The notes under the pieces were generated by a model. The model did no database searches, had not been told where the DNA came from, and saw only the letters and a list, made by a program, of their open reading frames with translations. A stretch of DNA of 64,000 bases from the human T2T-CHM13v2.0 reference genome, Homo sapiens. Below, piece by piece: positions 13,246-46,719 of the stretch. The stretch's first letter is position 1. Each line of letters opens with the position of its first letter. The DNA lies in NCBI RefSeq assembly GCF_009914755.1, contig NC_060947.1; one strand, given 5' to 3'. The position numbers and the translations under genes were made by a program.

Positions 13246-17544
<4,299 letters not shown>

Positions 17545-17549
17545 CTAAA

Positions 17550-18582
17550 CTTATTTTTAAATAGGTTTTTATTCTGGAATAGTTTTAGATTTACAGAAAA
17601 GTTAGTTAAGAGATAGTACAGAGAGTTTCTGTATATTCCTCACTGTAGTACATTTATCAAAAATAAGAAAGCAACATTGCTATATTACTACTACCTAAAC
17701 ATCAGACTTTACATGGCTTTATCAGTTTTTTTCACTGGTGTCCTTTTTTTGTTCCAGGATCCAATTCAAAATATCGCATTTCATTCAGTTGTCGTGTCTC
17801 CATAGCGTCCTCTGGTCTATGACAGTTTCTCAGTCTGTTCTTGTTTTTTTTTTGTTTGTTTGTTTTTGGTTTTTTTTTCCCAGAAGTCCATTAAGCTGAG
17901 AATGACCTTGTTTTTTATGACCTAACAGTTTTAAGGAATACTGTTGAATGTTCCTCAGTTTGTATTTGTCTGAAGTTTTGCTTATATTTAGAGTGGAGTT
18001 GTGTTTGGAAAGAACACCAGAGTTTAAATGCCTTTCTTATCAGATCATATCAGAGGTACCTGGTATCCATTGGCATCCCTGGTTTTGTGAACCTTCATCC
18101 CTTGGTTAAGGTGATGTTTGCCAGGTTTTCCCCCTGGCAAGTTGCTGCCTTTCCCTTTTCATAGTCTGTTCTTTGGAAGACTCTAGCCCACCCTCAAGTA
18201 GGTGGGAAGAATTGAGCTATAGCTCCTGGAAGGAGGGGGTGTATCTCTGTATATCATTTGAAATTCTTCTGTAAAGATTTGTCTCTTATCCCTTATTTAT
18301 TTATTCAGTCACTTATATCAGTATGAACTCATGCATTTTTATTTAATAATTTGAGTTATAAATCTAATACTGTGTTCTTTGTTTTGTTGGTCAAATCAGT
18401 CCAGTTTTGGCCACTGGGGACTCTTGCCAGTTGGCTCCTGTGTCCCTTTCACATACTCCCATCCTTTGGTTTTGAGCACTGCTTTACTTGCCAGCACTAG
18501 GAAATGCTCCAGACTCGTCTTGTATTTTCCTCTCTTAGTCCTGGAATCAGCCATTTCTCCAAGGAACCCTGGTTCCTTTTAA
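17550..18582 (-). mobile_element. L1MC-like 3'UTR nested in the L1ME
   Basis: AGTTTTAGATTTACAGAAAAGTT..AGTACAGAGAGTTTC and CCATTTCTCCAAGGAACCCTGGTTCCTTTTA, typical L1MC/MD 3' motifs. Confidence 0.75.
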
Positions 18583-19282
18583 GGTGTCTGTATATTCTTT
18601 TATGTTTTCTATGGTGACAACCATATCAGCTATAAATAATGACAGTTTTGTCTTTTCCTTTCCAATCTTTATGCCTTTATTTTTCTTGTCGTACTGAGAT
18701 GACCAGGACATCTAGTACAATGATGACAGCATGCATCTGTGTCTTGTTGTGTATTTTAGAGGAAACACCACTAACTTTTCCCTATTAAGAATGATACTGT
18801 ATTTGCTATAGATTTCCTACGGGTTTTATCAGGTTAAGCAAGTTCCATCCTATTACTCTATACTAAGAGGCTTTTATTTTTTTAATAATGAAAGGGTGTT
18901 GAATTTTTACCAAATGCCTTTTCTGTTTCTTATGATAATTATATGTTTTTTCTCCAATAATCTGATATGTGGTAAATGACATTTATAGATTTTCCTCATG
19001 TTAGACCATCTTTGCATTTCTTGTATAAACACAACTTGGTCATGGTCTTTCATTTTTTATACAGGTTGGTGAACAAAAGTTTGGAATTTTGCAACTGTGT
19101 CCATGAGTAAAATTGGTCTTTTCCTTTCTCAGGCTGTTCTTATTGGCTTTTGGCATTAAGGTTCTGCTGGTATAGAATGACTCAGAGTGTTCCCTCTTTT
19201 ATAATATTCTGGAAGATGCTGTATAAGTTTGGAATGATTGGTTTGGTAGAACTTCTGCAAAACCATCTTGTCTAGTGTTTTC

Positions 19283-20295
19283 CTTTTTAATATTGAATTA
19301 GTGTTAAACTTATAAATTAAAATATTTTCAAAATTGTAAATAAGAAGGTTGAAATTTGCTTCCATGTTTATTTTATAAGCTTTATGCTTGAAATGGCTAC
19401 ACACAAATCCTGAGCAAGACTTTTTTTTTTTTTTCTGAGCAAGACTTTTTAATGATGCATTCTTCAAATTCTTAACAGTCGCCATCCATAAATGTCTTTT
19501 TTTGTACAAGTAGGTGATAAAATATTTAAAGCCAATTTTTAAATGTTTCAAAGATATTTAACAATTGGAATTATATCTAACAGCTTTTCTTTTTGTTTCA
19601 CTGACAAGTATATTGTTAAAACTTCTCATGATGATGTGAGTAGATTTCAAATCCAGTTGAACGCTTTCATATTAACAATTTCAAAATAATGATGAAGCTC
19701 TTATTTGCAGAACATGCATCATTATTAGAACCATCACCCTGCAGCTAGCTTGGATACCATTAAAAGGGCTCATCAGCTGCAAACGGATTAAAGTATCTGA
19801 TACTCGGGAAGACAGAGTTTCAGGGTTTCTACCTGGAGCTACACCCTCAGGAAGCCCCTCCTTGGCCTCCCTGCACCCAGTCCCATCCCAACCAGTCACA
19901 TCTTGGGCTGTGCGTGGTGTTTCTTGGAAACTGGAACACAGACTCCTCCAGCAGCTCCACAGGTCCCTTGTCCTCAATGAGCAGAAGACTACAGGAGCTG
20001 GCTACTGAAGAGGCTGTCCAAGTAATAGAGCACCTTCTTGGCCCTGCTTAGCACATTTACTGCAGAGCTGGATGCTACTTATTTGTGCTCACCACCTTCA
20101 GGGACTGCAGAGAGATTTGTCAGACCCTACTTCACTAAGGGCCACCCTCTAAGGATCTCCAGAAGAGGCTGCCCATAGAGAGAAGTGGCCTGCCTAGGGT
20201 CTCCACTTCCTCAGGTCCTACCCGGACACCTCTAGGGCTGAGGGGATCAGTATCTCTTCACCTGCCTGTAATCCACATACCAAGTGGAAGAATCT
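19283..20295 (-). pseudogene. INTS15: Decayed INTS15 (C7orf26) copy: 5' flank, first 64 codons (19902-20092), then non-coding sequence
   Basis: Minus frames give VLSRAKKVLYYLDSLFSSQL and IEDKGPVELLEESVFQFP..AQPK versus recalled INTS15 ALSAAKEVLYHLDIYFSSQL..IVDKGPVELLEEFVFQVPKERSAQPK; interrupts contiguous L1ME sequence. Confidence 0.85.
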
Positions 20296-20518
20296 GCCTG
20301 CTATTTTTTGTTTGTTTGTTTGTTTGTTTTGGCGGGAAGAGTTTTAACTACTGCTGTAATTCCTTTAGTAGCTATGGAACTGTTGAGGATTTCTTTTTCT
20401 TCTTGAGTCGATTTTGGTAAGATAACAGTTTTCTAGGAGTTGGTCCATTTTGTCTGCATTTTCAAATTCATTGGCATAAAGTTTCCTTTTTATTCTGTGC
20501 TGTGTATGAACTGTAACA

Positions 20519-20749
20519 ATGTCTCCTTTTTCATTACTGATATTGGTTATTTGTGCCTTCTCACTTTTTTTCTTGATCAATCTCACCAGAGGTTTATCTA
20601 TTTTATTAGTCTTTTCAAAGAACCAACTTTTGGCTTTGTTGCTCCTCTCTATTGTATCTTTGTTTTCTATTTCTTTAATTTCTGCTCTTATCTTTTTTGA
20701 TCTCCTTCCTTCCACATTTTTTGGGTTTATTCTGTTGTTCTTTTTCTAA
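20519..20749 (+). CDS. KANTR: KANTR integral membrane microprotein, 76 aa
   Basis: ATG with A at -3, TAA stop, almost all hydrophobic (MSPFSLLILVICAFSLFFLINLTRGLSILLVFSKNQLLALLLLSIV...FFGFILLFFF); sequence and length match my recollection of human KANTR; the nearby ACTG1 and U7 pseudogenes fit that locus. Confidence 0.8.
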   Translation: MSPFSLLILVICAFSLFFLINLTRGLSILLVFSKNQLLALLLLSIVSLFSISLISALIFFDLLPSTFFGFILLFFF

Positions 20750-22323
20750 TTTAACTGGACATTGAGCTCATTAGTTTTCATTCTTTCCCATTTTCTAATT
20801 TGTGCATTTAAGGATATAATTTCCCTCTAACTCCTGCTTCTCCATAAGTTTAGATATGTAGTATTTTCATTATTGCTCAGTTATAAGTACTTCATTTCTA
20901 TCAAGGTTACTTCTTTGACCTGTAAGTTATATAGAAATGTGTTTTTAGATTTCCAAATGTTTGGGGATTTAAAATTTTATCTCTTTGTTATTGAAATCTG
21001 TCTTAATTGCATTATGGTCAGAGGATGTGGTTTGTGTGACAACAACTCTGAAATTTTTTAGACTTGTTTTATGGCTTAGTATGTGACCAATATTTTTGAA
21101 TGCTTCCTGTGTGCTAATTTATAAGAATGTGTGTTCTCTAATTGTTGAATACAGAGATCTACATATGTCTATTATCAAGTTTGTGAACTATTGTTCAATT
21201 TTTACTTACCTATACTGATTTTTTTGGTCATTATCTACTGATAATTGAAAGAGGTGCGTTAATGTTCAACTGTAATGGTGGATTTGGCAATTTCTCCTTG
21301 TAATTCTATCTCGTTTCTTGCTTTATATATTTTGAGGGTGTTCATTAGGAATATTCAAATTAAAAATTGTTATATATTCCTGATAAATATGTAATGACCC
21401 TCTCTATTCCTGATAATGCATTTTTCTTTGAAACCTATTTTATCTTATATTAATGTAGTAACACAAACTTTTCTTGTTGGGATTTGTGTGGTATATAATT
21501 TTCCATCCTTTTACTTTTGAGCATTTTCATGCCATTATGTTTAATTATATCTCTTGGAAACAACATATAACTGGACCTTTTAAAAAATCTAATCTGATTA
21601 TCTCTTTTGGTTGGCAAGTTTAGTCTGTTTACATTTACTGTGATGTATTTGGGCTTGTTTCTACCATCATACTTTTTTATTTCTGTTTACCATCACTACC
21701 TTTTCTGTGCTTCATTTTCTCTTTTCTCGCCTGCTTTTTTAGTTTTGAGATTTGTTTTCTTATTCAATTTTTTTCCTCCCTATTTTTAAATTTTTTTCTA
21801 TTCTTTCTGTGGTTATCCTTGATGTTTTCCATATGTGTTTAACTTATAAAGTCTAAAGTTAAACAATATTTTAGCCCCCTTCTTAAAGAATGCAGGAAGC
21901 TTAGAAACCTTCAACTCTAGTCATTCCTCTCCTGATCACATACTGTTGTTTTCAAATATGTTAGTTTGTTCCTTTTTATAAACCTCACAATTTTACATCA
22001 TTGTCAGTGTTATTTTATATAGACAGTGTTTGTTTGGACTTACATGCATACATTCTTGTATCACACATCATCCTTTGGGATCATTTTCTTTCATTATGAA
22101 TATAGTGTTTAAGTGAGTTTTTTTTTTTTTTAGTACAGGTCTCTTGATGTTAAATTCTTCCAGTCTTTCTTATATGTAAATGTCTTTATTTTATCCTCAT
22201 TCTTAAAAGATAGTTTGTTACAGGTATTTTTACTCAACACTTAGAATATATGGTTCCATTCTCTTTTGGCTTTGAGATGTCTGTTGCTATTAAGAAGTCG
22301 ACTATCAGACTAATTGCTGGTTT

Positions 22324-22380
22324 TGTGTGTGTGTGTAGTAGTAGTAGTAGTAGTGGTAGTAGTGGTAGTAGTAGTAGTGG
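22324..22380. repeat. Compound microsatellite (TG)n(TAG/TGG)n
   Basis: Directly visible. Confidence 0.95.
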
Positions 22381-23059
22381 AATGTGCAGGGGGTCCTGCA
22401 GTTTTACTCTAACATGTTTACATATGTATTTTTTTTTAATTCTACTTTGGGAATGTCATGCTTCGTGGCTCAGTGAATTCATGCTTTTCATAATTTCTGG
22501 GAAATTCTCAACCATTATCTCTTCAAATATTGCCTTTCATTTTTTCTAGTTTTTCTTTCTTGGAATACAGTTAGTCATATTTTGGACCTCCTCATTCTAT
22601 CTTCCGTATCTCATAACATCTCTGAGATTTTCTATCTCCTTGTCTTTCTGCACTTCATTCTGGATAATTTCTTTAGGTATATCTTTCAGCTTACTGATTC
22701 TCTTTTCAACTATGTTTAATCTGCTCTAATCTGCCCATTGAGTTTTTTATTTCAAAAGTTATATTTTTCATTTGTACAAACCTCATATATTTTACTTGCT
22801 AATCTGCCTAGTCATCCCTAATAGTCTCTTATTGCTTGGTCATCTTAGTGATTACATCTGTTATTACTTCTTTAAAACATTTTATATAATTTTTGTTCAA
22901 CCAGTAGTCACTGTTTGCATGAGTATGACATTGTAAATATTGTTCACATCAAAACTACATAGTATATTCTGATTACATATCCTTCGTTGTATACCCTTTC
23001 GTTTTCCTTGGAGCTAATAATTGTGTATTTTGTTTTCTTTTGCTTAGTGTTCTAGTACC

Positions 23060-23700
23060 TATACTATTCTTCTCTGAAATTCTTTATACAATCCAAATCA
23101 GATCATGTCCTTCCACTATTCAGAATTCTCCCATGGCTCCCACCTCCCTCAACAAAAGCCAAAGCCCTCACCATGGCCCAAAGTCCCTACATAATCTGGT
23201 TCCCTTTACCTCTCTTACCTTGTCTCCTATCACTCTCAATATCACTCACTCTTCTCCAGCTACACTGGCCTCCTTGCTGTTCCCCAAGTGTGCTAGATAC
23301 CCTTCCTTTTCAGGGCCTTTGTACTTGTTCTTCTCACTGCCTGAAACACCCTTCCTCCTAAATAATCTGATGAGTTGCCCTAGTACTTCCAGTGTGCTCA
23401 AATGTCACCTCCCTAGAGAAGTGTTTCCTGATCAACATATCTAAAATCGCCCCATCACATGCATTTTATATCCCTTTATCCTATTTTATGTATGTTTTTC
23501 TACAAAGCACTGATCACCACCTGGTATATTTTATATTTATTTATTGTGGTTAGTGTTCGTCTCTCTTCAGTAGACTGTAAGCTCCATAAAGCAGGGACTT
23601 CTGTTTTGTTCACTGCTGTATCCCCAGTGCCAAAAACAACAGTGCATAGTAGATACTCAATAAATATTTGTGGAATAAACTGAATGAATGGATGAATGAC
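23060..23700 (+). mobile_element. L2a 3' end, piece 3
   Basis: AAATCAGATCATGTC, TAGACTGTAAGCTCCAT, CTCAATAAATATTTGTGGAATAAACTGAATGAATG terminus. Confidence 0.9.
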
Positions 23701-24459
23701 TTAATTGATTAATGTGGAGGATAGAGAAATAAAGGCCTTGAGGAGTAGGCTAGGCACAAAGGCCTTTAATGCCATGCTAAGGAACTTGGATATCATTTTT
23801 CATAAGGGTGGGGGCTGTGAAGAAGCAGTGAGGATAGCTCCTGAGTTCTTTTGGGAAGCAAGTTCTCAGTTGGTAGGGTTGTGGCAAAGCCCCATATTTT
23901 CTGACTGGCTGTACGCCCTAGGGCTCCTGAAGGCAGGCCTGCCTCTTACTCAAATAGCCCTCAAACTGCTGTGTTGTCGTGCTGCCTGTTACCTGGTGAA
24001 AAACAAAACCCCAACTCTCATTGGGCTTTCTGATCCCAGCTATCATCCCCCTTTCTCTTGCACGGTGAGGAACTGTTTCCTGGTCCCCAGGCCAAGCAGA
24101 CCACTCTCATTATACTTTACCTGTGGTACTTGGTGGTGGTAGGGGGGCTGCAGGGGATAGCGTGGAAGCTGGCATGATGCTGGGCTCATAGTAAGTGTTA
24201 TTATAATGGGAGATACCCATAGGAGGGTAAGTTACAGCTCAAAAAGAGTTTATTTCATTGTCAAAGTGAGAACAGGCTGTGTGGGGTTTTAGTCCTGACT
24301 TTGCCCCTAACCCTACTGGGGCCTAGTCTGGCTCCAGTGTTTCTGCCTGCCCATGACTCCGGATACTAATTCTGTTGTCTAATGTGTGACCTACTCTCCT
24401 GTTTTGGTCACCCACTAATTTCATCAGCATGCCATCAGAATTATACAGAATGCCATCTA

Positions 24460-40957: not shown

Positions 40958-41296
40958 GTCCATACATGAGTGTAGGGAATACTTTGTGAATTTTTAGACT
41001 TTTTATTAACCACCAGAGAATATTTACTACACCTGGGTGTTTTTTAAAGAATACTGTTCTTATTCTGAAATAAGTAGACCGTTTTGCATATGATCAGCCA
41101 GTGTCCCTTACACAATTTATTTCATGTAATTTTCATCTTTCCCATGTAAATCTCAGTTCAGCCACTTAGTGGATCCAAGTCTCCAGGCAGCTGCCTTAGT
41201 CGTTCTGTGTCTCAAGTACTTTTAATCCATATTGTACAGTAAGGTGAATTTATAGATTTCAAGATCTATAAATTCTATAGATCTATAAGTGAATTT

Positions 41297-46540
<5,244 letters not shown>

Positions 46541-46719
46541 GATCTATAGGTGAATTTATAGATTTCAGGATTACACCTGGGTTTTTTTTTAATGTTTCAG
46601 TGCAATTTATTTTAAAGCACTCTTAATGCATTTAAATTTTATTTTTAAATGCATTAAAATTTAAATTTTTTAACATTTAAAACATTAATTTTTTAACAAT
46701 TAAAATTAATTTTTCTGTT

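What the first reader, a model, noticed from the sequence alone, without database searches (positions are those of the whole stretch)
20365..20749. Membrane microprotein ORF (KANTR) born from the antisense strand of an ancient L1 ORF2, with three overlapping open frames
Seen: the 76-aa hydrophobic ORF is exactly antisense to the K/E/N/I-rich linker of L1 ORF2, whose A-rich codons read as F/L/I/S on the other strand. Over this stretch the L1 frame is still open for 116 aa (KSWFFEKTNKIDKPLVRLIKKK). A third + frame from a weak-context ATG at 20506 runs to 20700. The rest of this L1ME is full of stops and indels. Known (recalled): KANTR was described as a lncRNA next to KDM5C and later annotated with a 76-aa membrane protein. 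Inference: local absence of indels points to purifying selection on an exapted L1 segment, a route from LINE antisense strands to TM microproteins.
Basis: partly seen in the sequence, partly recalled or inferred. Interest (0 to 1): 0.85.

Follow-up and report, generated by a model that had tools for sequence, protein, structure and literature searches.

The report
KANTR microprotein from antisense L1
This is the annotated human KANTR gene, whose 76-residue membrane microprotein is read from the reverse strand of an ancient LINE-1 fragment; this origin was published in 2017, and the two other open frames are best explained as side effects.

Summary
The KANTR CDS (20519-20749, +) lies antisense to LINE-1 ORF2. 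The minus frame is open for 126 codons, not 116, and matches human ORF2p residues 336-443 (E 5e-23), which is the tower domain. A third + frame (ATG 20506 to 20700) is also open. None of 29 paralogous L1 copies keeps comparable minus or second + frames.

Lagarde et al. 2017 describe a placental-conserved 76-aa, two-TM ORF "within and antisense to a L1".

Independent support found here:
- A vole orthologue is 73/76 identical.
- Human-lineage change in the CDS falls mainly on third codon positions.
- The CDS kept all 231 nt, while 29 paralogues kept 158-228.

Corrections:
- The stretch is not indel-free. There is a 15-nt deletion in the 5'UTR part and a probable +1/-4 compensated frameshift.
- A plain inside-versus-outside divergence test was not an outlier (rank 4 of 29).
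- The extra frames are best read as by-products of a T-rich codon set plus chance. The L1 frame has no usable ATG.

One addition: the start and stop codons are shared with many paralogues, so the L1 probably delivered a nearly ready-made ORF. KANTR-like frames are common genome-wide.

Novelty: already known. Protein function remains unknown.

The parts
20519..20749 (+). KANTR CDS: 76 codons plus TAA. The product is a hydrophobic two-helix microprotein.
   Evidence: ORF and translation; hub RefSeq table (coding 20519-20749); vole orthologue 96% identical. AF2 pLDDT 85, helices 3-32 and 36-75. GRAVY 1.96.
20365..20745 (-). Open minus frame of 126 codons, a relic of the L1 ORF2 tower domain. About 20365-20697 are true ORF2 codons (aa about 342-443). 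The last 16 codons are probably out of the ORF2 frame.
   Evidence: E 5e-23 to ORF2p 336-443; indels. The only Met is at residue 100 (my count on the translation).
20506..20700 (+). Third-frame ORF of 64 codons starting at a weak-context upstream ATG. It overlaps the KANTR start and is the codon-for-codon complement of the L1 frame.
   Evidence: Phase worked out from the coordinates. No Pfam match.
20404..21577 (-). L1 ORF2 relic covering the endonuclease and tower (ORF2p aa 35-443). It is in mixed frames with many stops outside 20365-20745.
   Evidence: phmmer against PDB ORF2p chains, with stops read as X.
18604..19152 (-). L1 ORF2 reverse-transcriptase relic (ORF2p aa 518-710), on the same strand and colinear. 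It is probably the same element.
   Evidence: second matched stretch (query 1532-1714).
19286..20056 (.). Another old dispersed repeat lying between the two L1 pieces. The acceptor of the KANTR terminal exon (19711) lies inside it.
   Evidence: 26 further places in the genome at 65-89% identity, most of them (19 of 26 by my count) falling wholly within query 127-897. Exon start taken from the hub table.
19711..23684 (+). Terminal exon of NM_001397448.1. It holds 808 nt of 5'UTR with 5 upstream ATGs, the CDS, and a 2.9-kb 3'UTR that is mostly antisense L1.
   Evidence: Hub table; (upstream ATGs at 19714, 19977, 20072, 20374, 20506).

Best explanation
The locus is the KANTR coding sequence. An ancient LINE-1 inserted in minus orientation. 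The + strand opposite its ORF2 tower domain (tower helix, tower lock, up to just before the PIP box) is thymine-rich, because ORF2 there is rich in K, E, N and I. In the register used, third codon positions of the two strands coincide and positions 1 and 2 swap. AA (Lys/Asn) therefore reads as TT (Phe/Leu), GA (Glu/Asp) as TC (Ser), and AT (Ile) as AT (Ile/Met). The result is two hydrophobic helices joined by a short SKNQ turn.

The start and stop codons were probably already present on the antisense strand of the source L1, so a nearly ready-made ORF was delivered. This one copy became part of a spliced, brain-expressed + strand transcript and has been held by purifying selection on the peptide since before the primate-rodent split.

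The open L1 frame is a passive consequence. In this register, antisense stops need Tyr, His or Gln codons in KANTR, and KANTR has a single Gln. The 51 further open codons in the 5'UTR part are luck. The third frame stays open over the CDS because only three KANTR codon junctions can create a stop there.

Inferred, not shown: the peptide inserts as a helical hairpin into an endomembrane and acts as a small subunit or regulator of a larger membrane protein. It is probably translated inefficiently, downstream of five upstream ATGs.
For: [quoted passage not shown]
- ORF2p domain map: (Baldwin 2024, passages read: tower 239-440, helices 301-370, lock 374-382, PIP 404-419).
- Selection across species: the vole protein is 73/76 identical, and the changes T23S, S33T and F74L are conservative.
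- Selection in the human lineage, from triplet terminal-branch estimates on L1 copies chosen by likeness to another paralogue: K's CDS codon positions 1/2/3 give 0.128/0.083/0.234 (ranks 10, 2 and 27 of 29). The same phases in the adjacent 5'UTR part are flat at 0.223/0.236/0.238.
- The fast third positions argue against a nucleotide-level element, and against coding in the third frame, where these sites would be position 1.
- The CDS kept 231 nt, while 0 of 29 paralogues kept that many (158-228).
- Ancestral start and stop: ATG in 14 of 29 paralogues (ATA in 7), and TAG in 22 of 29 at the stop columns. Paralogue peptides from that ATG resemble KANTR's N-terminus but end after 1-22 aa in 12 of 14.
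- By-product frames: simulations. The L1 frame has its only Met at residue 100.
- Fold: plus hydropathy.
- Expression: the lacZ knock-in reporter is seen in mouse embryo and adult brain.
Against: - The inside-versus-outside divergence ratio for K is 0.67, rank 4 of 29, so it is not an outlier. K's CDS branch (0.148) is about the median of neutral copies, and only its flanks are longer.
- The codon-position signal rests on about 34 substitutions (my arithmetic), and the phase is shared with the L1 frame. The FLANK control is not flat: K reads 0.186/0.178/0.257, also with a phase-3 excess. Pre-insertion ORF2 selection may therefore contribute to the signal.
- No nucleotide sequence from another mammal was available, so dN/dS and per-frame tests were not run here.
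- Lagarde 2017 found no peptide evidence.
- I found no paper in this library that shows the protein or its function. Some recent papers still call KANTR a lncRNA.
- Open KANTR-like frames are common. By my count, 51 of 145 scored paralogous matches have no stop inside. Openness in human alone therefore proves nothing.
- The hairpin model comes from a single sequence, and hydrophobic peptides fold as helices in such models by default.
Confidence: 0.8

Rival explanations
1. The conserved unit is an RNA or DNA element (lncRNA function, enhancer, or piRNA-precursor context). On this view the ORF is an incidental passenger that annotation promoted to a protein.
For: - KANTR was long treated as a lincRNA and is still called one.
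- Its transcript is a pre-pachytene piRNA precursor.
- No peptide evidence existed in 2017.
- The 5'UTR is long with 5 upstream ATGs.
- Open KANTR-like frames are frequent in L1 copies.
Against: - Third codon positions in the human lineage change at or above the neutral rate (0.234, rank 27 of 29), while position 2 is the second slowest of 29.
- All three human-vole differences are conservative at the protein level.
- Lagarde 2017 reports coding-type substitutions and a PhyloCSF-based reclassification.
Confidence: 0.08
2. The locus is dual or triple coding. The 64-aa third-frame ORF from ATG 20506, or the open L1-frame peptide, is also made and selected.
For: - All three frames are open together, which none of 29 paralogues achieves and 0 of 5000 shuffles achieve jointly.
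- ATG 20506 lies upstream of the KANTR ATG on the same mRNA.
Against: - The L1 frame is on the untranscribed strand in the hub table, and its only Met leaves 27 codons.
- Third-frame position 1 coincides with the fastest sites and its position 3 with the slowest, which is the reverse of a coding pattern.
- ATG 20506 has T at -3, and none of the 29 paralogues has ATG at those columns.
- Given KANTR positions 1 and 2, both frames stay open over the CDS in 3.5-19% of randomisations.
- No Pfam match.
Confidence: 0.04
3. It is a chance ORF in a decayed L1 with no biological role. It would be retained in a few species and over-annotated.
For: - The T-rich antisense strand gives long + frames by default: 8 of 29 paralogues have >=79 open codons, and 667 of 5000 shuffles reach 87.
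- The genome holds 23,951 first-look KANTR-like candidates.
Against: - 96% protein identity between human and a vole.
- Placental conservation is reported.
- No paralogue keeps the full CDS length.
- Only 2 of 14 paralogues with the ATG read beyond 22 aa.
Confidence: 0.03

Closest known systems
KANTR integral membrane protein (RefSeq NM_001397448.1), as described by Lagarde et al. 2017 (capture long-read sequencing paper)
   Same: It is the same locus, the same 76-aa ORF, the same two-TM prediction and the same L1-antisense origin (hub table).
   Different: Nothing differs in kind. Added here:
- the exact ORF2p region (tower, aa about 325-400 under the CDS);
- the frame register;
- the indel history;
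- a start and stop shared with paralogues;
- an explanation of the other two frames.
TM-first de novo gene birth from thymine-rich sequence (Vakirlis et al. 2020, PMC7005711; title and start of abstract seen in the listing)
   Same: A T-rich, previously non-genic reading frame yields a hydrophobic membrane peptide that selection then keeps. The stretch is 50% T and the peptide has GRAVY 1.96.
   Different: The T-richness here is not intergenic. It is the complement of an A-rich transposon coding region. The ORF was copied thousands of times by the L1 itself, and the case is mammalian and about 100 My old (the age is inferred).
LINE-1 ORF0 (primate L1 antisense ORF in the 5'UTR; recalled, not from any call)
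   Same: It is a peptide encoded on the antisense strand of an L1.
   Different: ORF0 lies in the 5'UTR of young primate L1s and depends on the L1 antisense promoter. KANTR lies opposite the ORF2 tower domain of an ancient, dead L1 and is driven by a host gene's promoter and splicing.
Small membrane regulatory micropeptides once annotated as lncRNAs (the phospholamban / sarcolipin / myoregulin / DWORF class; recalled)
   Same: These are very short, almost wholly hydrophobic products of transcripts first called noncoding. They are conserved although they have no domain.
   Different: Those are single-pass peptides with a known partner (SERCA). KANTR is a predicted two-helix hairpin with no known partner, and no sequence or fold relative was found.

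Membership tests
KANTR protein-coding gene (annotated CDS) | ATG-to-stop ORF of 76 codons at the annotated coordinates on the + strand | tested here: met
   hub table lists coding 20519-20749.
KANTR protein-coding gene (annotated CDS) | Orthologous protein conserved in other mammals | tested here: met
   one cluster of 21 member sequences. Its representative, from Chionomys nivalis, is 73/76 identical. The other members could not be listed. Placental conservation is reported.
KANTR protein-coding gene (annotated CDS) | Coding-type substitution pattern (positions 1 and 2 constrained, position 3 free) | tested here: inconclusive
   human-lineage branch 0.128/0.083/0.234, against flat values in the 5'UTR part. 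This rests on few substitutions and the phase is shared with the L1 frame.
KANTR protein-coding gene (annotated CDS) | The protein is actually made (ribosome footprints or peptides) | not testable with these tools
   Lagarde 2017 found no peptide evidence. No later report was found.
Two-pass integral membrane hairpin | Two hydrophobic helices long enough to span a bilayer, joined by a short polar turn | tested here: met
   (helices 3-32 and 36-75, pLDDT 85). (19-residue hydropathy of 1.6-2.6 except around residues 17-24). This is prediction only.
LINE-1 ORF2-derived sequence | Significant similarity of the minus frame to ORF2p, with colinear endonuclease and RT relics | tested here: met
LINE-1 ORF2-derived sequence | Many dispersed paralogous copies in the genome | tested here: met
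   (2719 first-look candidates; the best is 79% identical). (23,951 candidates at protein level).
   No Dfam or RepeatMasker library is held. The flanks differ from co-family copies by a branch of about 0.21-0.23, which fits an old mammalian-wide L1.
Overlapping (dual or triple) coding gene | A usable start codon and independent constraint in each extra frame | tested here: not met
   L1 frame: the only Met is at residue 100 of 126. Third frame: weak ATG, absent at those columns in all 29 paralogues. The rate pattern is opposite to coding.
L1 ORF0 | Antisense ORF inside the L1 5'UTR | tested here: not met
   The ORF lies opposite ORF2p aa about 325-400.

The most novel reading that the evidence does not exclude
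The antisense strand of the L1 ORF2 tower region may be a recurrent, ready-made source of hairpin membrane microproteins. On this reading the source L1 already carried the ATG, the stop and a KANTR-like reading. Tens of thousands of copies were scattered through mammalian genomes, and about a dozen of the 145 best-scoring human copies still hold an uninterrupted near-full-length frame. KANTR would then be only the first recognised member, and a few other copies embedded in transcripts would also be translated and selected.
Probability: 0.12. Interest if true: 0.55.

Novelty: already known. Interest (0 to 1): 0.27.

Why it matters
KANTR is a clean, old example of a transposon's non-coding strand becoming a conserved host protein. 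It shows why this can happen: an A-rich coding strand has a T-rich complement that encodes membrane helices and rarely contains stops.

That point, and this gene, are already published and annotated, so the finding adds no new entity. What this analysis adds is practical:
- Simultaneous openness of overlapping frames in such T-rich codon sets is weak evidence of function.
- The open L1 frame should not be read as a surviving L1 protein.
- The protein has only one tryptic peptide of convenient size (residues 25-34, between R24 and K34; my reading of the translation). This may explain the missing mass-spectrometry evidence.

Tried and rejected
With copies chosen by likeness to K, the comparison is biased: searches gave 70-80% identity inside and 65-75% in the flank, but the copies were picked on K itself. 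I re-did it on 28 copies chosen by likeness to a paralogue. K's ratio was 0.67, rank 4 of 29. This is suggestive, not decisive.
- A second paralogue query hit a larger, different subfamily. K was not among the 41 listed matches and the loci could not be cut, so it was not used.
- Frameshift check by protein. A 67-aa read through 20660-20860 in the alternative minus frame found nothing in the PDB at E<=10. 16-aa peptides of the two candidate frames scored alike on the paralogues. The +1/-4 claim therefore rests on the alignment, which is ambiguous in a T-rich run, and on my by-eye match of the translation to the ORF2p line.
- Pfam gave nothing above cut-off for any of the three peptides.
- The ESM Atlas gave no usable hit.
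- Foldseek against the PDB gave 0 matches at E<=0.001 and 5 weak rows.
- Literature. 'KANTR' with the default word-start matching pulled 4,149 papers, including unrelated words such as Kantrowitz, and a six-term search returned no KANTR paper. CORDAX was listed for KANTR, but the term is not in its main text. The mRNA kinetics paper only drops Kantr from its analysis.
- No complex prediction was run, because no binding claim is made.

Full report
**What is there**

Window 20365-20749 is 50% thymine on the + strand (T 192, A 70, C 67, G 56). Read from stop to stop, three frames are open:
- + 20510-20749, 79 codons. ATG 20519 gives a 76-aa peptide, which equals the RefSeq CDS in the hub table.
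- + 20437-20700, 87 codons. ATG 20506 gives 64 aa.
- Minus 20365-20745, 126 codons.

The ATG at 20519 has A at -3. The ATG at 20506 sits in tgtATGa. The terminal exon holds five ATGs upstream of the CDS, and the last of them is 20506.

**The L1**

The minus peptide matches only LINE-1 ORF2p chains in the PDB: 5 of 5 distinct sequences at E<=1, with 8uw3 at 5.1e-23. Residues 12-114 align to ORF2p 336-443, with two short gaps in the query.

I read 17365-23745 in the three minus frames with stops as X:
- The same frame carries ORF2p 60-443 down to window 20404, with about 15 stops upstream of the open stretch (my count).
- The endonuclease aa 35-236 (about 20996-21577) fits better in another frame and has 9 stops.
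- An RT piece, aa 518-710, lies at 18604-19152 on the same strand.
- The third minus frame gave nothing relevant.

Between the two L1 pieces lies about 1.2 kb of other DNA. Its stretch 19286-20056 is itself an old dispersed repeat (26 further places at 65-89%, most of them inside that stretch), and it holds the exon's acceptor site.

By the domain map of Baldwin et al. 2024 (passages read), the KANTR CDS lies opposite the second tower helix, the tower lock (374-382) and the residues up to about 400. The PIP-box helix (404-419) lies opposite the KANTR 5'UTR.

**Register of the frames**

This follows from the coordinates.
- KANTR codon position 3 and L1-frame position 3 are the same nucleotides, and positions 1 and 2 are swapped.
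- AA (Lys/Asn) therefore reads as TT (Phe/Leu), GA (Glu/Asp) as TC (Ser) and AT (Ile) as AT. The residue-by-residue map is printed. This explains the composition of L 22, F 14, S 11 and I 9 out of 76.
- A stop in the L1 frame needs a Tyr, His or Gln codon in KANTR. KANTR has one Gln and no Tyr or His.
- The third frame is the codon-for-codon complement of the L1 frame.

**Is it more than chance?**

Against dinucleotide shuffles of the 385 nt:
- a minus frame of >=126 codons appears in 1 of 5000;
- a best + frame of >=87 in 667 of 5000;
- a second + frame of >=79 in 54 of 5000;
- all together in 0 of 5000.

A better null is other L1 copies. To avoid picking copies that resemble K (this locus), I searched the genome with a paralogue (L008:1480-2130; 2914 first-look candidates, 40 scored, 30 cut as loci). 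K itself came 10th among non-self hits. The remaining 28 copies plus the query paralogue make up the set, and they are aligned.

Over the homologous 385 nt:
- the longest minus frame is median 53, max 92 (K has 126);
- the best + frame is median 61, max 107, with 8 of 29 reaching 79;
- the second + frame has max 77 (K has 79).

A long + frame is therefore ordinary for this region. K's minus frame, second + frame and their combination are not.

**Selection**

1. Across species. The large protein database returned one cluster (21 members) whose representative, from the vole Chionomys nivalis, is named 'KDM5C adjacent transcript'. It is 76 aa long and 73/76 identical to human (T23S, S33T, F74L). 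The other three hits are L1-antisense readings from short ENA contigs. Lagarde et al. [quoted passage not shown]

2. Human lineage, by triplet terminal-branch estimates (p-distance; K plus 28 copies).
   - K is 0.233 in the 5'UTR part, 0.148 in the CDS and 0.207 in the 3' flank.
   - The ratio is 0.67, rank 4 of 29, which is not an outlier. Some copies with inflated flanks are truncated there.
   - By KANTR codon position, K is 0.128/0.083/0.234 (ranks 10, 2 and 27 of 29), against medians of 0.148/0.145/0.176. The same phases are flat in K's 5'UTR part (0.223/0.236/0.238). In the 3' flank they are 0.186/0.178/0.257, so that control also shows a third-phase excess.
   - Fast third positions speak against a nucleotide-level element and against coding in the third frame.
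   - The signal is small (about 34 substitutions, my arithmetic) and its phase is shared with the L1 frame.

3. Indels.
   - K's CDS kept 231 nt, while the 29 others kept 158-228.
   - K does have a private 15-nt deletion in the 5'UTR part.
   - It probably also has +1 nt near 20699 (in the Asp61 codon) and -4 nt just past the stop.
   - Between those two points the true ORF2 frame would be a different one, so only about 111 of the 126 open codons are ORF2 codons.
   - Protein-level checks of this frameshift were inconclusive.

**The other frames as by-products**

I kept KANTR codon positions 1 and 2 fixed and drew third positions among synonymous codons.
- The L1 frame stays open over the CDS in 50% of draws (uniform) or 24% (flank base composition).
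- The third frame stays open up to 20697 in 38% or 15%.
- Both stay open in 19% or 3.5%.

The further 51 open L1-frame codons lie in the unconstrained 5'UTR part and are best read as luck. The L1 frame's only Met is residue 100. The ATG at 20506 is found in none of the 29 paralogues at those columns.

**Birth of the ORF**

- At the KANTR start columns, 14 of 29 paralogues have ATG and 7 have ATA. At the stop columns, 22 of 29 have TAG.
- Column-wise, 14 of the 29 carry no stop triplet in the KANTR phase across the CDS.
- Their own indels end the real ORFs from that ATG after 1-22 aa in 12 of 14 copies; the other two read 51 and 74 aa. Their N-termini are visibly KANTR-like.
- A different L1 in this window (44392-44565, minus) gives a KANTR-like reading that is 59% identical over residues 1-58, with two stops and Ile in place of Met.
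- Genome-wide, the peptide has 23,951 first-look candidates. 150 were scored and 146 reach E<=0.001, at 46-69% identity. By my count 51 of the 145 non-self matches have no stop inside, and about a dozen of those span nearly the whole peptide.
- The L1 therefore probably delivered a nearly finished ORF. What is special about this copy is its retention.

**The protein**

- AlphaFold2 on the single sequence gives two helices (3-32 and 36-75) at pLDDT 85. GRAVY is 1.96.
- No Pfam family, Atlas neighbour or PDB fold match was found.
- The mouse reporter is expressed in embryo and adult brain. The human gene is weakly expressed and X-inactivated, and its read-through transcript is a piRNA precursor.
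- I found no functional study of the peptide.
- A role as a small membrane-embedded partner of a larger protein is my inference only.

**Verdict**

The feature is real, correctly identified and selected, but already published and annotated. The three-frame feature is explained rather than mysterious.

Noticed in passing
window 19286-20056: An old low-copy dispersed repeat (26 other places in the genome at 65-89% identity, most of them inside this stretch) sits between the tower and RT relics of the L1. It contains the splice acceptor (19711) of the KANTR terminal exon. The adjoining 20057-20300 found no other copy.
   Followed up: partly
window 20304-20331: A T-run followed by a (GTTT)n microsatellite lies exactly where recognisable L1 ORF2 similarity ends (aa 443) on the 5'UTR side.
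   Followed up: no
window 44392-44565 (minus strand) inside the long repeat block 41295-46549: A second L1, from a different family and in + orientation, gives a KANTR-like antisense reading that is 59% identical over residues 1-58. It has two stops and no ATG. The motif around 'GLSILL.FSKNQLL' is the complement of the conserved ORF2p tower-lock region.
   Followed up: partly
own genome, one search list (for example C12:4464122-4464343, C19:37788622-37788840, C8:78282724-78282942): About a dozen L1 copies elsewhere in the genome keep an uninterrupted KANTR-like frame across nearly all 76 residues (51-61% identity). A large uniform group matches residues 2-60 within a 154-codon open frame interrupted by 1-2 TGA, and probably belongs to a younger L1 family.
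   Followed up: no
protein P0004 (ENA, 124 aa): A predicted protein whose first half is a KANTR-like L1-antisense reading and whose second half reads like L1 ORF2 sense sequence. This suggests an inverted L1 junction or an assembly artefact in a 654-nt contig.
   Followed up: no
window about 17450-17560 (minus frame): An Alu-type reading matched a PDB chain named 'cDNA FLJ55172' (E 2.6e-5). This is consistent with the masked repeat at 16936-17630 and is ordinary.
   Followed up: no
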